A stretch of 64,000 bases of DNA from Octopus vulgaris (Eukaryota): positions 11,160,001 to 11,224,000 of the forward strand of contig OX597831.1 of the NCBI GenBank assembly GCA_951406725.2. The letters run 5' to 3'. The position numbers and the translations under genes were made by a program. The notes beneath the pieces are model-generated. The model ran no database searches. It was not told where the DNA came from and saw only the letters and a list, made by a program, of their open reading frames with translations. Positions 1,170-59,289 of the stretch are shown here, in pieces. Each line of letters begins with the position of its first letter. Within the stretch, counting starts at the first letter, position 1.

Positions 1170-1615
1170 ATGGTATGAAAAGTGACCTCAGCTGCTGGTC
1201 CTGGTCCACTTATTCGGCTACAAGGGACTGTCAATGCTGAACCCTACAAGCAGATTCTTAGACAACGTGCCCTTCCACATCTCCAATCCTCGTTAGTTCA
1301 ACCTCCTATCTTCGTGCAGGCAACGCTCCCTGTCACACTGCGTAGAGAATCAAAGATTCATTGAGAGATGAACGGGTTGATCTCATGGACTGGCCACCTC
1401 AAAGTCCCGATCTCAACCCTATAGAAAACATTTGGAAGATTATTGGACATGGGGCGCGAAGGAGAAATCCAAACAATCAAGATGAACTCTGTTGGAAATT
1501 ATTGGTAAACGAATGGAACAATATTACTCCATCATTTTGCAAGGAATTATTTCAGTCCTGCAGTAACAGATTTCAGGAGGTCATTGATAGTAAAGGGATG
1601 TTCACAAAATATTAA
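1170..1615 (+). pseudogene. Tc1 DDE transposase C-terminal remnant
   Basis: MV*...GPGPLIRLQGTVNAEPYKQIL, frameshifted Q(D)NAPCH, then DWPPQSPDLNPIENIW...EWNNI...VIDSKGMFTKY*; contains stops and frameshifts. Confidence 0.93.
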
Positions 1616-2468: not shown

Positions 2469-3100
2469 TATACAAATGAATTGCTATATATTATTATACA
2501 GGACAATATTTATGGTACTGCATGTTATATTTATAAACACGTAATCTATTCACCATAAATTCAAGCACGTGTTTCATAGATATTTCATCAAATATCTAAT
2601 TCAATTACCATTAGAAAGAGAGATGGAAGGAGAGGGAGAGAGAGAGAGACGGAGAGGGAGTGAGAGAGAGAGAGAGAGAAAGAGAAGTGTGAGCAGGTGG
2701 GAAGAGTAGTTACGAAGTTACTAAATTGTATTACCTCAGAGAAAATGAGAACCCTATATCAATGTTCGCGTTTCTATACGTGTATACATACATACATACA
2801 TACATACACACATACATACATGCATGCATGCATATATACATACATTCATACATACATACATACATACATACATACATACATACATACATACATACATACA
2901 TCAATCCATCCATCCATCCATCCATACATACATACATTAATCCATACATACATACATACATACATACATCAATCCATCCATCCATCCATCCATACATACA
3001 TACATCAATCCATACATACATACATACATACATCAATCCATCCATACATACATCCATACGTACGTAAATACAAATAAACCTGTGTGTATATGTGTATATA

Positions 3101-3401
3101 TTCTTTTATTCTTTTACTTGTTTCAGTCGTTTGACTGCGGCCATGCTGGAGCACTGCCTTAAAGGGCTTTAGTCGAACAAATCGACCCCAAGACTTATTC
3201 TTTGTAAGCCCAGCACTTGCTCTATCATTCTCTGTTGACGAACCGTTATGTCACGGGGACGTAAACACACCAACATTGGTTGTCAAACGATGGTGGAGGG
3301 ACAAACGTAGACAGAAACACACACACACACACACTAACATATATGTATGTATGTATATATGTATGTGTGTATGTATGTATGTATGTATGTATGTATGTAT
3401 G

Positions 3402-7722: not shown

Positions 7723-7847
7723 CAGACACACATACACACAGAGAATCACACATACAAACACACAAACACACAAACACAGAAACATATACACACACATAAA
7801 TATATTGATGTTTGTTTTTCTCTCGAGTAATTTATTGATTTAGACAT

Positions 7848-27447: not shown

Positions 27448-27698
27448 TTTGTGAATGGTTTTGCCAGATTCTTTATGAGAATTCGTGTGTTGAAGTATAT
27501 TTTATTGTGCCTGAGGGGAGTCATTCTGTTGTAATGCTTTATTAATTAACACACTCACCGGTTCGATTTCCACTCATTTACTTATCTATCTAATTTTCTA
27601 TAAATAAATGAATAGATGAGTGGATATCGAACCGGTGAGTGTGTTAATTAAGAAGGCATTAAAACAGAATGACTGCCCCCAGGGCACAATAAAAATAT
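27443..27698. mobile_element. Second copy of the fold-back family seen at 1620-2054
   Basis: Shares AGATTCTTT...GTGTGTT...ATTGTG...GGGGAG...AACACACTCACCGG with the first copy; inverted arms ~27497-27585 vs ~27605-27698. Confidence 0.75.
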
Positions 27699-35126: not shown

Positions 35127-35995
35127 CGTGGTCTGATCAATAAGTATACAGGTTGTTGCCATAGTAACGAAGCTAAAACACGGAGAGTAAAGCTGCTTGA
35201 TTCATATTGACCTTCAGCTCTACTGTGCATATACACAAAGTTTTAACTTTCTAGCTCACTTCTGCTGTTTAGAGCAGTGCTTGGAACGAAGGTGTGTAGT
35301 GTGTGATTGTTGCATTCACCATGACTGAGAAAGTTGAGCAGAGAATCTGCGTCAAATTTTGCTGAAAGCTTGGTGATACCTGCTCAGAGACTGATGCAAA
35401 GTTTTCAAAATGTTTTCGTTGATCTTGACACAATCAAGGCGATCTTGTGCAACTGAGAGTCAAGTGTCTTTTTGGTCAGCTGAAAATAGTTTTGGCACAA
35501 ACATGGCAGACACGCGTCTCATACCCAAATCTTCCGTGATAATGGACTGAACTGAACCGTAACTAATCTGCACATCTGCAAAGTCACGGATGGTGATTTG
35601 ACGATTTTCCCCTCACAGCTGCATGCACATCTGCGATGATTTTCGCAATTCTGCTGGTTGCGGATCTCCAAGAAGGTTCGTCACTATCGACATTTTTCGT
35701 TCATCTTGGAAACGTCTGAACCACTCGTACACTTGTGTGAGGCTCGTACACTCCTCTCCATACACTTTCTGCAACACTGCGTCGGCCTCTAAGCAGACAT
35801 TGCCTTGACAACTTTCATTGTCATGGTCAATGCGACGATCACATGCTACACACCTTCCTTTCAAGCACTGCTGTAAACAGCGCAGGGTGACCTACAGCGT
35901 CAAAACTTAGTGCTCTTGCACAACAGAGTTTAAGATCAATGTTTGATAAGCGGCTTTACTCTGTTTGCTTTAGCTTCGTTACTATGGCAACTGTC
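35127..35995. mobile_element. mariner derivative built from two convergent 5' halves
   Basis: + strand: TA|CGTGGTCTGATCAA TIR, UTR, MTEKVEQRICVKFC*KLG (ATG at 35321). Minus strand: same UTR, then VLQKVYGEECTSLTQVYEWFRRFQ...LGMRRVSAMFVPKL. Confidence 0.88.
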
Positions 35996-37665: not shown

Positions 37666-38186
37666 ATGCGTGCTCATATGCGACGTAATATCACATCAGC
37701 AGCATTTCCTCACACCCTCCTTGCACTTGGCGAAGGCAAAATACCAGGGGATGAAAATGGTAATATTGCCATCGAGTCCATTTGTACCATTGTTAAGACG
37801 CCTTCTGATCTCAGAGATGCAGTGTTCCCGATCTACAAGCTAATTATCAGAATATGGATTGGATTGGCAAAAAGGCTATACTGGCCCCGAGGAATAAAAC
37901 TGTTCACCATATTTATGATGAAATGCTAAAACTCATTCCTGGGGAAGTCTATGTATATCAGTCTATCGATACAACTCCTGACCCAGAGGACGTCATCAAC
38001 TATCCAATAGAGGTACTCAATTCCTTTGAGCACACCGGACTACCACCACACTTTCTCAAACTTAAAGTTGGTGCCCCTATAATGCTCATCAGAAATTTGG
38101 TTCCCCCAAAACAATGCAATGGCACACGTTTGATCGTTAAGTCCTTATCTCCCACCGTAAACTTATATCAATATTTGCCTGAATAA
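37666..38186 (+). pseudogene. Helitron RepHel PIF1-like helicase fragment
   Basis: NMRAH...LLALGEGK, frameshift, then AILAPRN...YPIEVLNS...GLPPHFLKLKVGAPIMLIRNLVPPKQCNGTRLIV. Confidence 0.94.
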
Positions 38187-38261
38187 TCATCATAATTCAG
38201 TGCAATCATTAACAGTACTTTCAAGCAATTCAGCCCCGAGCAACGCCGGGCAATTCTGCTA

Positions 38262-38302
<41 letters not shown>

Positions 38303-38303
<1 letters not shown>

Positions 38304-38807
38304 TAGCAGTATCGCCCGGCGTTGCTCGGGTTTGTAAGGGAAATAACTATATAAGCATTTTTAGAGAGTTACTTCCCTTATAAATTCGGGCTTTCTTAGC
38401 CATTTTTGTTTTGGTGTCTTCAAGCCATGAAGTCGTTGTTCTAAAAGAACGCTGGTTTCCTTCACAACGCATTACGACGTTGATTTCTTTACACTCCCTT
38501 CCCCACAGCTTCACGAGGGAGGGAAGGGGGAGAAGCAAACAGGTGCAGCTGTGAGCGTGGACGCCAACTCCGCCGCCATCGACATACGATGCATTTATGC
38601 ATTAAAATGGAATAAAAAATGATGTTAAATTATTTTTAAAATCGTAGACTCATCGTTGACGAGCGCTAATAGTCAGACGGGCTCGATATGAATCACGACT
38701 ATAAGATACCCGAATTTGGTTAAACTGCACCGCAAAATGTGGGAGGAGTTAGGAATCTAAATCGAAGGGGACAGACACTCACACAACTAGAGTTTTATAT
38801 ATATAGA
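38303..38807 (-). mobile_element. Non-autonomous Helitron (505 bp)
   Basis: Minus 5' A|TCTATATATATAAAAC; 3' CCCGAGCAACGCCGGGCGATACTGCTAG|T; 5' part homologous to 37418-37620. Confidence 0.9.
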
Positions 38808-41611: not shown

Positions 41612-41689
41612 AGTAACAGTTTCATGCGATGAAAACGACACAGACAGCATTTTATAACACGTCTTTTCCCTTCACGCAATCTTCAGACT
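41612..41689 (-). ncRNA. Hammerhead ribozyme motif with partly decayed helix III
   Basis: AGU-CUGAAGA-U-UGCG-UGAA...UUCA-U-CGCA-U-GAA-ACUGU-U-ACU; same core flanks as the 57688 motif. Confidence 0.55.
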
Positions 41690-43392: not shown

Positions 43393-43777
43393 AGAAAATA
43401 GTAAAAAGTGAAAAACTACAGAAGGCTTGTTTTATAAGGTTAAAGAATATATTTGAGTCATTATGTCAGAAGAATGTTATAACATTTTTTCATACAGTAA
43501 CATAGTTTTTGAAGAAATTACCGGTTTCGTGTTAACTTTTGAAATTTCTCAAGTGTCTTTACCTACATCATGTTATGTCTTCATAACGAAGACATAACAT
43601 GATGTAGGTAAAGACACTTGAGAAATTTCAAAAGTTAACACGAAACCGGTAATTTCTTCAAAATCTATGTCACTGTATGAAAAAATTTATAACGTTCTTC
43701 CAACATAATGACTCAAATATATTCTTTAACCTTATAAAAGAAGCCTTCTGTAGTTTTTTCACCTTTTACTATTTTCT
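43393..43777. repeat. Long fold-back inverted repeat (~190-bp arms, 5-nt loop), likely PLE-derived
   Basis: Arms 43393-43582 and 43588-43777; the inner ~75 bp are perfectly complementary; loop ATAAC. Confidence 0.95.
43622..43656 (+). ncRNA. Minimal hammerhead-like motif with UUCAAAA core (mirror copy 43514-43548, minus strand)
   Basis: GAAAU-UUCAAAA-GU[UAAC]AC-GAA-ACCGGU-A-AUUUC: 5-bp helix I, palindromic helix III and GUA triplet, but G5 is C. Confidence 0.55.
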
Positions 43778-56021: not shown

Positions 56022-56835
56022 TCAAAGAGATCATACAACAGTGATAGACAATAAGCCAGAAAAAAGAGATAAAGAAAGAATGTCAGTGTGAGAGAGTGAG
56101 AGAAAGAAGTGGGGAGAGAAAGCGAGCAAAAGCGGTGGTGGCTGTGTGGAGGTGGTGGTGGTGGTGGTGGTGGTGGTGGTGGTGTTTGTGATGGTGGTGG
56201 TGGTGATTGCGATTGTGGTTGTGGTTGTGGTGGTGGTGGTGGCGGTGGTTGTGATGGCGGTGGTTGTAGTGGTGGTCGTCGTCATGGTAGTGATGGTGGT
56301 CGTGGTGGGAATGTATTTTCGAAGGTCCTGCTTATTTTTCTTGTTGTTAATTCCCTTGTCATCCCCGAATCCCCGACCGAGCAGACTCACGATTTAAGGG
56401 GCAATACTATCCGTGAGCATCGCCTCTTTCTATGCTGATAGGGTATTTATTGTTAATTAAATCAAACAACATCCTGAATGATAAGGAAATAGCATTTTCT
56501 AAATTACTAATTCTGGTGAAGAAAGACAAGGGAGACAAACACGGAAGTTAAATTTCTTAAAATTAATTGAAATTAACCAAAAACCTGAATGCAGCAAAGA
56601 ATGAACAAACACGGATCCTTAGCGAACACGGGAGATGATCCCGAAATTTAACCAAAGTCTAGAGTGTTGTTAAGAATGGGACTCATCGCTAACAGACAAA
56701 GGGGACAATACAGAAATTTATATTACTTAAAATTAAGCAAAATCTAAAATGGAGTGAGGAATGGGTTTGATTCTTGGAAATACGGCGATAACTTTGGACA
56801 TATTTCCGTCTTTTAGACTTCATTAATAAAATACC

Positions 56836-57051
56836 TATTTCTTTAGTACCCACAAGGGGACAAACAAGGACAGACAAACGGATTAAGTCGATTATATCGA
56901 CCCCAGTGCGTAACTGGTACTTAATTTATCGACCCCGAAAGGCTGAAAGGCAAAGTCGACCTCGGCGGAATTTGAACTCAGAACGTAACGGCAGACGAAA
57001 TACGGCTACGCATTTCTCCCGGCATGCTAACGTTTCTGCCAGCTCACCGCC
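56836..57051 (-). mobile_element. SINE family B, full-length young copy
   Basis: Close match to 13619-13848; 16-bp target duplication CTTCATTAATAAAATA. Confidence 0.93.
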
Positions 57052-57145
57052 TTCCTTAATAAAATACTTCATTAATAAAATATAGTTTAATTGTTATTGC
57101 CGTTCTTACTATAACTGGAAACGTATAGAGGGAATTTTTCCCGAT

Positions 57146-57512
57146 TGGCTCTGTGGTAAGATGTTTGCTTCCCAACTATGTTATTTTGGGTTCAGTCCTA
57201 CTGCGTGGCACCTTCGGCGGGTATCTTCTATAAAAGCCCTCGGGCGACTAAGGCCTTGTGAGTTGATTTGGATTGAGGGAAGCTCTGTGGGTGTGCGTGT
57301 TTGTGTCAGTGTTTGTCACGCACCACCGCTTGGCAAACGATATTGGTGTGTTTATATCCCCGTAACCTAGCGGTTCGGTAAAGGAGAAAAAAATTGAATA
57401 ATCACCAAGCTTTAAAATAGGTACAAGTGTCGCTTCGACCAACTAAAATTATTCCAGGTGGTGCCCCAGCTTGGCCGCAGTCAAACAAGTGAAAGAATAA
57501 GAGAATAAAAGA
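57146..57512 (+). mobile_element. SINE family A, diverged
   Basis: Colinear with 17309-17710. Confidence 0.85.
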
Positions 57513-57687
57513 ATATACATTTTTCGCAAAGTCTAACAATCCGAAAAGTACCTCGCCTCAATCGCGCATGAGATATAAATACACATATCCATCCACACAC
57601 ACACACACACACACATATATACACATACATACATATAAATAATGTTTACATATATACATATATAAGCAATAAGGATATCCAGAGGTA

Positions 57688-57777
57688 ATGCAGTACGATC
57701 GTTTCATGCGACTCCATTTAATTGAACAATGTAAATATTACATCAGTTTTAAAATGTAGAGCAATCTTCAGCTGCAT
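57688..57777 (-). ncRNA. Type-I hammerhead ribozyme with complete core and extended helix II
   Basis: AUGCAG-CUGAAGA-UUGCUCUACAUUU...AUGUAA[UAU]UUACAU...AAAUGGAGUCGCAU-GAA-ACGAUCGU-A-CUGCAU: 6-bp helix I, perfect 8-nt palindromic helix III, GUA triplet. Confidence 0.8.
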
Positions 57778-59289
57778 AAAAATATAGAATTTAGTTAAAT
57801 TCAAAGAATTCATTTGTATAGTTATTCTATTAATAAAAATCACAAAGAGGATAAGTAGATAGACAAAGAACAAATTTCATAGTTGTAACTGGTATCTTTT
57901 CACAGGAAGACACTGCTTATCATTGATTTTACTTTTATATTTAGATTCATTACTGGGAGGGGGGTGTTAATTTCATAGACTAGCCTATCAAGTCCAATGG
58001 AAACCAGAATCCATCCCCCATGGATAGAGCAAAAAAGGACAGCCCAAGTGGCAGAGCCACAAATCAAGATCCCCCTGAAGTAGAAACCACCCGGGTTCAG
58101 CAAGAATACATTTCAGCCAAAATCCGCAGGCCAAAGCCGATGGGGCAGGGAGAGCAAAACCCACAACACCCAACCACTTGACAGCAATAACCCCAATAAC
58201 AATTTGCAATATACAGGTACATTTCAGAGAGTTTCCCCCACAAAGAATCAGAACAACCTTCAAATTGGACTAGGCATAAAATGGCAATAAACAACTAAAT
58301 GAGCGTCCAAATACCGAGGGACCTTCTGCGCAACCATTCGAAATGCTACAAATAGCAAAATCAGTTGGGACACCGAAAGATCCTTTATTCTATGTTTTCA
58401 TGAGCAGAACAAGTCTGGACTAAGCAACAACAATGAAAACGATCGCAATGGGGTCGATCAACCAGTTAGAAATAGCAGTTAACGTTCACTTAAATCACAA
58501 CGCTATTTTTTTCAAAAAGAAAGGATATATTATGTAAGATATTATGTAAGATATGGACAGAAAAGATTGTCAGGGTTTAGGGTGCCATTTCTAGAACTTC
58601 TCACTCAGAGCTCACCAGGGTCTAAATAATTACATATATGTCTCTAAGCATGGAGGAATCCTCAATACAGGTGATCCACTACCTTTCCTCAGTTATTTCC
58701 CTTCACAGTATTTATCTGTGTCCCTATTTACCTACTTGATCCCTTGTCACAATGTACGTTTCATAATAAACATTTATAAAAGACCCACGTCACCGCCATA
58801 GCGCTTATAGTTTGAATTCTCGGTTACGTCCCTTGTTTTCTTGGATTGAAGTGAGCTTCTGAAATAATTACGTTTGCTATATAATAATGAGTAATTTTAA
58901 TTAACAAAAATTTTTGGCTCCATTTCATCAAGGATATTAACAGCCTCTTTCTCTTGTTTAATATAAAGTAACATAAGACCAATTGTTGTTGCTGTTGTTG
59001 ATGTTCAGCTCCATGCCCTCACTGAGCATGCGTGATAATGTCCGGAATTCAATAACACTGAAGATGGTCTGCAATAATTTGCCGCAAGGGGCGCTCGCAG
59101 AAGAATTCTGTAATTTTAATTACAGTGAAATGTAAAAAAAAAACAATTAGAAAAAACAGACGCTTCGGACCATTAACCTTTATCACATAGTAAGAAACAG
59201 GAACAGAAAATTGTGGTCTCACCTTTGCTTTCAACCAGAGTAACAACACATCAACTCTGTCTTCTCCTGAAAAAAAATTGTGTCGTTAC

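What the first reader, a model, noticed from the sequence alone, without database searches (positions are those of the whole stretch)
57688..57777. Complete hammerhead ribozyme, the best candidate for activity
Seen (minus strand): all core nucleotides (C3U4G5A6A7G8A9, G12A13A14, A15.1-U16.1, GUA triplet), helix I AUGCAG/CUGCAU, helix III the perfect palindrome ACGAUCGU, and a long multi-segment helix II capped by AUGUAA[UAU]UUACAU. Predicted cut is between 57694 and 57693. Helix II starts with an unusual U-U pair rather than the usual G-C. Inference: this is a pseudo-LTR ribozyme; the oppositely oriented decayed ORF-like stretch at ~58020-58295 may be the PLE 5' region.
Basis: partly seen in the sequence, partly recalled or inferred. 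Interest (0 to 1): 0.75.

Follow-up and report, generated by a model that had tools for sequence, protein, structure and literature searches.

The report
Long-armed hammerhead beside RNA-editing scar
This is an intact hammerhead motif with an unusually long side arm at the end of a dead copy of a Penelope-type jumping gene, predicted to cut RNA only when two copies pair, and the DNA just upstream carries a one-strand burst of 40 A-to-G changes that is likely RNA editing copied back into the inherited genome.

Summary
The hammerhead is real and sits exactly as described. It ends a 5'-truncated copy (about 57662-58256, minus strand) of a Hydra-clade Penelope-like element, in the same sense as the ORF. 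Full-length sisters read ribozyme-ORF-ribozyme. The U-U opening of helix II is not odd: 14 of 25 published Hydra-clade motifs have it. The 59-nt helix II is the variant feature (published 12-26 nt); it covaries across subfamilies, and about 32,000 motif matches in this genome have arms over 30 nt. Stem III is a palindrome that covaries across unrelated families, so cutting likely needs a dimer; nothing makes this lone fossil copy the best candidate for activity. This scan had already noted both long-armed Hydra hammerheads and ADAR scars on other DNA; I found neither in print for these elements. Cleavage is untested.

The parts
57688..57777 (-). Type I hammerhead motif in the 3' pseudo-LTR of a Hydra-clade Penelope-like element
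57765..57771 (-). Core C3-A9
   Evidence: invariant except N7 in 22 of 22 aligned subfamily members, which were picked with the core as the search motif
57706..57764 (-). 59-nt helix II domain: U.U opening, basal stem, middle stem, apical hairpin with 3-nt loop
   Evidence: basal 89%, middle 81%, apical 95% of cells paired; 7 of 21 pairs change on both sides
57695..57702 (-). Stem III, perfect 8-nt palindrome; predicted 8-bp duplex between two ribozymes
   Evidence: duplex -10.0 kcal/mol, hairpin +2.4; eight different palindromes across families
57693..57694 (-). Predicted cleavage site after GUA
   Evidence: inferred from the hammerhead consensus, not tested
57662..57687 (-). 3' end of the element (short terminus, about 7 nt shorter than in sisters), abutting a (TA)n/(CA)n tract
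57778..58256 (-). Rest of the 5'-truncated copy: distal 3' UTR of the element, with a 12-nt deletion near 57880 not seen in the aligned sisters
57984..58254 (-). A-to-G hypermutated tract (40 changes, about half of all family A positions), likely ADAR-edited RNA fixed by reverse transcription
   Evidence: shared with contigs of two other organisms

Best explanation
The motif is the hammerhead at the 3' end of a truncated, fossil copy of a Hydra-clade Penelope-like retrotransposon; it has a long covarying helix II and a palindromic stem III, is predicted to cleave only as a pair, and lies next to a tract that was likely hyper-edited by ADAR before the RNA was copied into DNA. Shown: the element context, same-sense orientation, the ribozyme-ORF-ribozyme layout of full-length sisters (cut sites 4,650 nt apart, first cut 209 nt before the ATG), covariation of helix II, palindrome conservation across families, and the strand-specific A>G cluster. 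Inferred: in a full-length transcript the two ribozymes pair through stem III into a double hammerhead and release a unit-length RNA; the long arm is a tolerated or protein-binding extension that leaves the catalytic junction unchanged. Inferred: the RNA that gave this copy was double-stranded over 57984-58254, most simply by fold-back with an inverted arm or an antisense transcript, was deaminated by ADAR, and was then reverse transcribed from its unedited 3' end into a (TA)n site, stopping in the edited tract. This genomic copy itself probably does nothing today.
For: Family of dispersed copies, best 30 loci 89-97% identical. ORF end with CxCx5C linker and GIY-YIG-like domain runs into the UTR and ribozyme in one sense in L033, L078, L079, L082. 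Full-length sisters L164 and L152 with 99% direct terminal repeats; RW[KR], DKT, YRDD, CxCx5C, CxxC..E, N..CxH found in 3 of 3 sister ORFs tested, the Hydra signature (PMC8557442 section 11). Structure: 90.4% of 606 cells paired, 11 of 28 pairs with double changes, slid controls 30-53%. Stem III: of the first 100 listed matches with the middle four bases left free, 60 are strict and 25 wobble palindromes, 15 neither, eight different strict ones (hand count; chance for strict is 16 in 256). Dimer MFE -40.4 against 2 x -16.1 kcal/mol, with the core unpaired. Editing: 42 A>G, 1 T>C, 2 G>A, 2 C>T of 54 substitutions, p 6e-14; edited fraction by 5' neighbour U 20/27, A 15/27, C 1/9, G 1/9, by 3' neighbour G 9/9, A 16/28, C 5/11, U 8/25; G depletion upstream is the shared ADAR motif (PMC5625713). 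A 410-nt contig of organism B spans 58011-58419 and keeps 36 of the 37 changed sites it covers.
Against: No cleavage, expression or editing was measured. No full-length copy of the window's own family was found, so the 5' ribozyme, RWK and DKT are shown only in sister families. The pair test's count of pairs with double changes did not beat the shuffles (66 of 500 as high), the rows are related, and I drew the structure from these sequences. Dimeric PLE hammerheads cleave slowly in vitro (PMC4209133), and in the one PLE tested biochemically cleavage was not needed for insertion and no RNA ends mapped to the cut site (PMC11167929). Invertebrate hyper-editing is reported to favour A, not G, at the 3' side; here G is highest but on 9 sites. 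No partner strand for the edited tract was found, and only 1 of 101 aligned pieces is hyper-edited. Within the family the ribozyme is barely better kept than the UTR (3.5% against 3.6-5.6% divergence).
Confidence: 0.8

Rival explanations
1. The long helix II is functional beyond catalysis: it is a docking site for the element's protein or helps cap-independent translation of the cut RNA, whose ORF begins about 200 nt after the cut.
For: Arms over 30 nt are the majority form here (19,252 + 12,817 matches against 12,647 short ones) in many families with unrelated arm sequence. First cut lies 209 nt before the ATG in L164. Type I hammerheads upstream of viral ORFs are needed for cap-independent translation (PMC13725137, passages).
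Against: The arm lies 5' of the cut, so it stays off a linear cut RNA's 5' end. Short-armed motifs are also abundant in the same genome and are the published norm. No binding or translation test.
Confidence: 0.3
2. The motif cleaves efficiently as a monomer, the long arm supplying a tertiary contact that rescues the weak stem III.
For: Helix I has 6 bp and the core is complete. Internal loops in the arm could stand in for loop 2 (inference).
Against: Monomer hammerhead fold has predicted probability 0.0005, stem III as hairpin is +2.4 kcal/mol. Palindromy of the middle bases across eight sequences is needed only for pairing between two copies.
Confidence: 0.12
3. The A>G tract comes from something other than ADAR: reverse-transcriptase error under nucleotide imbalance, biased gene conversion, or an assembly error.
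For: Single event, no double-stranded partner found; no RNA evidence.
Against: 42 to 1 strand bias excludes GC-biased conversion; neighbour pattern fits ADAR; independent contigs of organisms B and C carry the changes; APOBEC scars run G>A on the sense strand (PMC4866542).
Confidence: 0.1
4. One reading: the ribozyme lies antisense to, and upstream of, a decayed ORF beginning at 58020 on the plus strand.
For: A 53-codon ATG-led frame exists at 58020.
Against: No similarity to the element protein anywhere in the window (tblastn empty); sisters have stops through this stretch in all three such frames; the true ORF is upstream on the ribozyme strand.
Confidence: 0.02

Closest known systems
Hammerheads of Hydra-clade Penelope-like elements (Craig et al. 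2021, PMC8557442, section 11 and File S2; includes Hydra-1_Obim of an octopus)
   Same: Sense-strand type I motif near the 3' end, U.U opening followed by UGC/GCA (8 of 25 families match this exactly, 14 of 25 have U.U), near-palindromic short stem III, (TA)n targets, RWK/DKT/CxCx5C protein signature.
   Different: Helix II domain 59 nt against 12-26 nt (hand count from File S2); stem III a perfect 8-mer rather than mostly 9-10 nt with a central mismatch; unit about 4.7 kb with a 1.5-1.9 kb 3' UTR and an Asn-rich insert, against under 3 kb; alternative 3' ends about 100 nt apart against a 30-40 nt tail.
Minimal dimer-dependent PLE hammerheads (Cervera and De la Pena 2014, PMC4209133; Lunse et al., known to me only through the review PMC6765202)
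   Same: Located in both pseudo-LTRs, palindromic stem III, predicted dimeric cleavage.
   Different: Their 'larger than usual' helix II is 7-8 bp; here about 21 predicted bp in three segments.
ADAR hyper-edited avian retroviruses (Rous-associated virus U3, avian leukosis virus inverted repeat; as summarised in PMC12925331)
   Same: About half of the adenosines changed to G in a retro-transcribed genome.
   Different: Here a Penelope-like retrotransposon, fixed in the germ line and shared between organisms.
APOBEC DNA editing of LTR retrotransposons (Knisbacher and Levanon, PMC4866542)
   Same: Clustered one-type hypermutation preserved in genomic retroelement copies.
   Different: That is G>A on the sense strand, made on cDNA, and was reported absent from 19 invertebrates; this is A>G on the sense strand.

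Membership tests
Type I hammerhead ribozyme | Core C3 U4 G5 A6 N7 G8 A9, G12 A13 A14, A15.1-U16.1, H17 | tested here: met
Type I hammerhead ribozyme | Three helices, helix I open-ended, supported by covariation | tested here: met
   helix I 3 of 4 pairs with double changes; helix II 7 of 21; stem III 1 of 3
Type I hammerhead ribozyme | G10.1-C11.1 pair (usual, not obligatory) | tested here: not met
   U.U here; described as a natural, best-tolerated mismatch (PMC3088659) and common in the Hydra clade; sister subfamilies have G-C or G.U
Type I hammerhead ribozyme | Match to an Rfam hammerhead model | tested here: not met
   no hammerhead family at E up to 10; likely because of the long arm (inference)
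Type I hammerhead ribozyme | Mg2+-dependent self-cleavage after H17 | not testable with these tools
   needs a bench assay
Dimer-dependent PLE hammerheads | Short palindromic stem III, unstable as a hairpin | tested here: met
Dimer-dependent PLE hammerheads | Two same-sense copies in one transcript unit | tested here: inconclusive
   met in sisters L164, L152, L155; the window copy is alone, and the only other motif in the window has a different stem III
Hydra-clade Penelope-like elements | RWK and DKT motifs in the RT N-terminus | tested here: met
Hydra-clade Penelope-like elements | CxCx5C linker, C-terminal GIY-YIG-type endonuclease with CxxC and CxH around E and N | tested here: met
   sisters; own family fragments L033, L047, L044; Pfam GIY-YIG only weak, E 0.01, none for two full sister ORFs
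Hydra-clade Penelope-like elements | Insertion into (TA)n, pseudo-LTRs, inverted 5' pieces, optional tail | tested here: met
   the window copy abuts (TA)n at its 3' end only
Hydra-clade Penelope-like elements | Placement in the Hydra clade on an RT tree | not tested
   no reference proteins were in hand as sequences
Hydra-clade Penelope-like elements | Generally shorter than 3 kb | tested here: not met
   unit 4,650 nt in L164; a tendency in the paper, not a definition
Neptune-clade Penelope-like elements | DKG motif and CX2-5CxxC linker | tested here: not met
   DKT and CxCx5C instead
Non-LTR retrozymes | Short non-coding tandem repeats each with a hammerhead | tested here: not met
   single truncated end of a coding element
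ADAR hyper-editing footprint | Dense A>G on the RNA sense strand only | tested here: met
ADAR hyper-editing footprint | G depleted 5' of edited sites | tested here: met
   1/9 against 36/63, Fisher p 0.013
ADAR hyper-editing footprint | A double-stranded partner for the edited tract | tested here: inconclusive
   none near this copy; head-to-head arms are common in sisters

The most novel reading that the evidence does not exclude
Octopus-type Hydra elements have evolved a long-armed hammerhead that anchors the element's own protein on the RNA 3' end, and the sharp stop of ADAR editing 213 nt before the core is a fossil footprint of that protected region: RNAs can be heavily edited in the UTR and still be copied into the germ line, provided the ribozyme end stays unedited.
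Probability: 0.2. Interest if true: 0.75.

Novelty: new variant of a known kind. Interest (0 to 1): 0.5.

Why it matters
Two modest points. First, hammerheads with arms of 30-60 nt or more are the majority form in this genome, tens of thousands of matches, and the Rfam models miss the example here; ribozyme counts in such genomes are probably too low, and many natural variants exist for testing dimeric cleavage. Second, the copy records RNA editing turned into inherited DNA in a lineage known for extreme editing. That shows a Penelope-type reverse transcriptase can copy inosine-rich RNA, that the element's RNA met ADAR in germ-line cells, and where on the RNA editing stopped.

Tried and rejected
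Rfam scans: whole window gave only microsatellite-driven microRNA matches in the 150 of 537 rows shown; local scan no hammerhead. Single-sequence folding: no signal over shuffles. My first pair count used a mis-registered bracket string and is void; one search is the corrected one. I first read the element as Neptune from recalled motifs; dropped after the DKT and CxCx5C check. An apparent rise in conservation towards the ribozyme is explained by the window copy's own A>G tract; among 33-35 copies picked by upstream sequence the difference is small. Expression: no RNA holder listed, all runs are contigs, so cut ends could not be looked for. Other hyper-edited copies: none among 101 aligned pieces (next best p 0.007, 7 A>G of 27), none in 4,366 overlapping windows over about 1 Mb of fetched DNA apart from this locus, one match, the window itself, for an edited-UTR motif, zero for an edited helix II motif; the two motif searches have low power. 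Organism A's run X15 does not cover most of the edited tract (76% read). A joint skipping 57516-58466 in one contig has a 26-letter side between repeats and was not used. The 5' flank 58257-58600 is close to unique; no target duplication seen. The Lunse et al. paper is not held; one search fetched an unrelated paper. Literature searches for novelty: octopus + hammerhead (4 listed), long helix II (3 listed), ADAR hypermutation in genomic retrotransposon copies: listings only, none described these features for PLEs; subscription papers and bioRxiv supplements were not searchable.

Full report
Observation. A descriptor scan of the window gave 3 hits, and this is the only one with a palindromic stem III. 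The predicted cut is 57694/57693. Taken alone the 90-mer is unremarkable: z -0.55 against shuffles and no Rfam hammerhead match. Its reality rests on the family. The window lies in a 2.8-Gb genome, likely an octopus (inference: microsatellite-rich, and the one named protein hit is an Octopus record at 70% identity over 24% of the query). A DNA search gave 1,893 first-look candidates, 40 scored, best copies 89-97% identical.

The element. The copy spans about 57662-58256 and ends in (TA)n at its 3' side. Longer copies extend it upstream on the ribozyme strand through about 1.9 kb of AT-rich UTR to the end of an ORF with a CxCx5C linker and a GIY-YIG-like domain. Several carry inverted 5' pieces. 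No full-length copy of this family turned up. Sister families have them: L164 reads ribozyme (3089-3167), 984-codon frame, 1.5-kb UTR, ribozyme (7739-7817), (TA)n, with terminal repeats 98.9% identical; L152 is the same on the minus strand. The cut sites are 4,650 nt apart and the first lies 209 nt before the ATG. All 3 sister ORFs tested have RW[KR], DKT, YRDD, CxCx5C, CxxC..E and N..CxH, the features given for the Hydra clade (PMC8557442, section 11 read). So the ribozyme is sense to the ORF, and 58020-58295 is 3' UTR read backwards; the element protein finds nothing in the window.

Helix II. File S2 of that paper (supplement part 2 read) lists 25 Hydra families: 14 open helix II with U.U, 8 of them followed by UGC/GCA as here. 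A U10.1-U11.1 mismatch was also described earlier as natural and best tolerated (PMC3088659, passages). In my alignment 73 of 82 pieces spanning the core have U.U and 70 of 82 have all 11 core bases. What differs is length: 59 nt against 12-26 nt in File S2 (hand count). On 22 hand-picked members of related subfamilies, a three-segment hairpin plus helices I and III has 90.4% of 606 cells paired, 73 cells and 11 of 28 pairs with double changes, against 30-53% paired when slid; the count of pairs with double changes alone did not beat the shuffles (66 of 500), and the rows are related. RNAalifold independently found the basal and apical segments, 6 of 13 pairs with double changes. Genome-wide, core-spacer-core patterns give 12,647 matches for spacers of 6-30 nt, 19,252 for 31-55 and 12,817 for 56-62, with 695, 754 and 173 for reversed controls. 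Long arms are the majority form, in many families with unrelated arm sequence, most of which fold into hairpins (20 hand-picked regions).

Stem III. As a hairpin the 8-mer costs +2.4 kcal/mol and the monomer hammerhead fold has probability 0.0005; as a duplex it gives -10.0, and two copies co-fold at -40.4 against 2 x -16.1 with helices I and III formed and the core open. With the middle four bases left free, the first 100 listed matches are 60 strict palindromes of eight kinds, 25 wobble palindromes and 15 neither (hand count). This fits the dimer model for PLE hammerheads (PMC4209133, parts 1-2 of 4 read; review PMC6765202, passages). Those papers report slow cleavage, and in Poseidon of the anole cleavage was not required for insertion in vitro (PMC11167929, passages). 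The window copy has no matching partner: the only other motif in the window has a different stem III.

The A-to-G tract. Aligning 57860-58330 with 9 sisters showed runs of A replaced by G on the RNA-sense strand. Against column majorities from 101 aligned pieces, the window copy has 42 A>G, 1 T>C, 2 G>A and 2 C>T among 54 substitutions (p 6e-14); no other piece is comparable. Forty changes lie in 57984-58254, where 36 family A positions stay A; 3' of that only 2 of 100 change (the script's own cut at 57985 gives 39/75 and 3/101). Edited fractions are U 20/27, A 15/27, C 1/9, G 1/9 by 5' neighbour and G 9/9, A 16/28, C 5/11, U 8/25 by 3' neighbour. Depletion of upstream G is the shared ADAR motif, octopus has the strongest hyper-editing signal among the species compared, and invertebrates are said to favour A downstream (PMC5625713, passages). 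The tract is private: no other copy exceeds 81% identity over it, the 45 closest pieces have G at 0-3 of these sites, and an all-against-all screen of about 1 Mb flagged only this locus for a transition cluster. It is not an assembly error: a 410-nt contig of organism B crosses the element's 5' junction and differs at only 3 places within 58011-58256, keeping 36 of 37 changed sites; a contig of organism C covers 58181 onwards with the same pattern (B and C are from different studies). The insertion is therefore older than the split of these organisms, whose flanks differ by 2-5%. The changes raise G+C and remove stops on the plus strand, which explains the ORF-like look.

Mechanism. Shown: context, orientation, covariation, the substitution pattern. 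Inferred: in active elements the two ribozymes of one transcript pair through stem III and cut out a unit-length RNA. Inferred: the RNA behind this copy was double-stranded over the tract, was deaminated, and was reverse transcribed from its unedited 3' end, stopping 485 nt upstream of the core. Why editing stops 213 nt before the core is unexplained: protection by protein or structure, the start of an antisense arm, or a template switch would all fit, and 5' truncation points of sisters show no pile-up at 213.

Comparison and novelty. A hammerhead in a PLE pseudo-LTR is known, and Hydra elements are known from an octopus. The long arm is a variant I did not find in print (listings only). A>G hyper-editing fixed by reverse transcription is reported for two avian retroviruses (PMC12925331, passages); genomic retroelement scars in print are APOBEC G>A and were not found in invertebrates (PMC4866542, passages; PMC2873906, passages); my searches showed no ADAR case for PLEs. 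This scan's earlier notes describe both long-armed Hydra hammerheads and ADAR scars on other DNA; they are unchecked leads. One pointed me to File S2 and the Hydra clade, which I then tested; the avian retrovirus and APOBEC papers were also leads from those notes, as was the protein-docking idea for the arm. I also read part 1 of 5 of 10.64898/2026.07.22.740005, passages and section 11 of the preprint 10.1101/2021.04.23.441226 and passages of PMC13725137. The Lunse et al. paper, which may list long-armed variants, could not be read.

Verdict. Observation confirmed, interpretation partly right. Interest 0.5.

Noticed in passing
window 41615-41686 (-): A second long-armed hammerhead motif of another family: full core, U.U opening, 58-nt helix II (-15.6 kcal/mol), 3-bp helix I, 5-nt stem III, near microsatellites. 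Same strand as the studied motif, 16 kb away, but with a different stem III.
   Followed up: partly
L003, L007, L008, L010, L013, L014, L020-L023, L027 (3' of the ribozyme): The family has two 3' termini, about 39 nt and about 138 nt after the cut, both abutting (TA)n; 11 of 15 distinct continuing copies end at the second (by eye). This tail of about 100 nt is longer than the 30-40 nt described for PLEs.
   Followed up: partly
genome-wide: Many families open helix II with a mismatch (U.U, A.A, A.C, C.A). Matches total 44,716 for spacers of 6-62 nt against 1,622 for reversed controls; some are double counts or chance hits in LINE sequence.
   Followed up: partly
L164:3296-6247, L150:3672-6941: Open frames of 984 and 1,090 codons with a long Asn-rich insert before the CxCx5C linker; no Pfam match at E 0.1. 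Several sister families look young (99% between terminal repeats).
   Followed up: partly
L155:1846-6653: Three same-sense ribozymes around one partial ORF, 1.3 and 3.5 kb apart.
   Followed up: no
window 43518-43650, 38235-38330, 27543-27650: Near-perfect DNA fold-backs; the second is centred on (TA)n.
   Followed up: no
window 1346-1612 (+), 35616-35891 (-), 37809-38183 (+): Short frames that look like Tc1/mariner transposase pieces and a PIF1-type helicase piece; names recalled from motifs, not tested.
   Followed up: no
window 56827-57053 and 57143-57516: Two other dispersed repeats, SINE-like by recall, hit by many unrelated loci.
   Followed up: no
L079:5810-7561 (-): A 584-codon frame of a different PLE type with Pfam RVT_1 and GIY-YIG matches lies about 1 kb from a copy of the studied family.
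   Followed up: no
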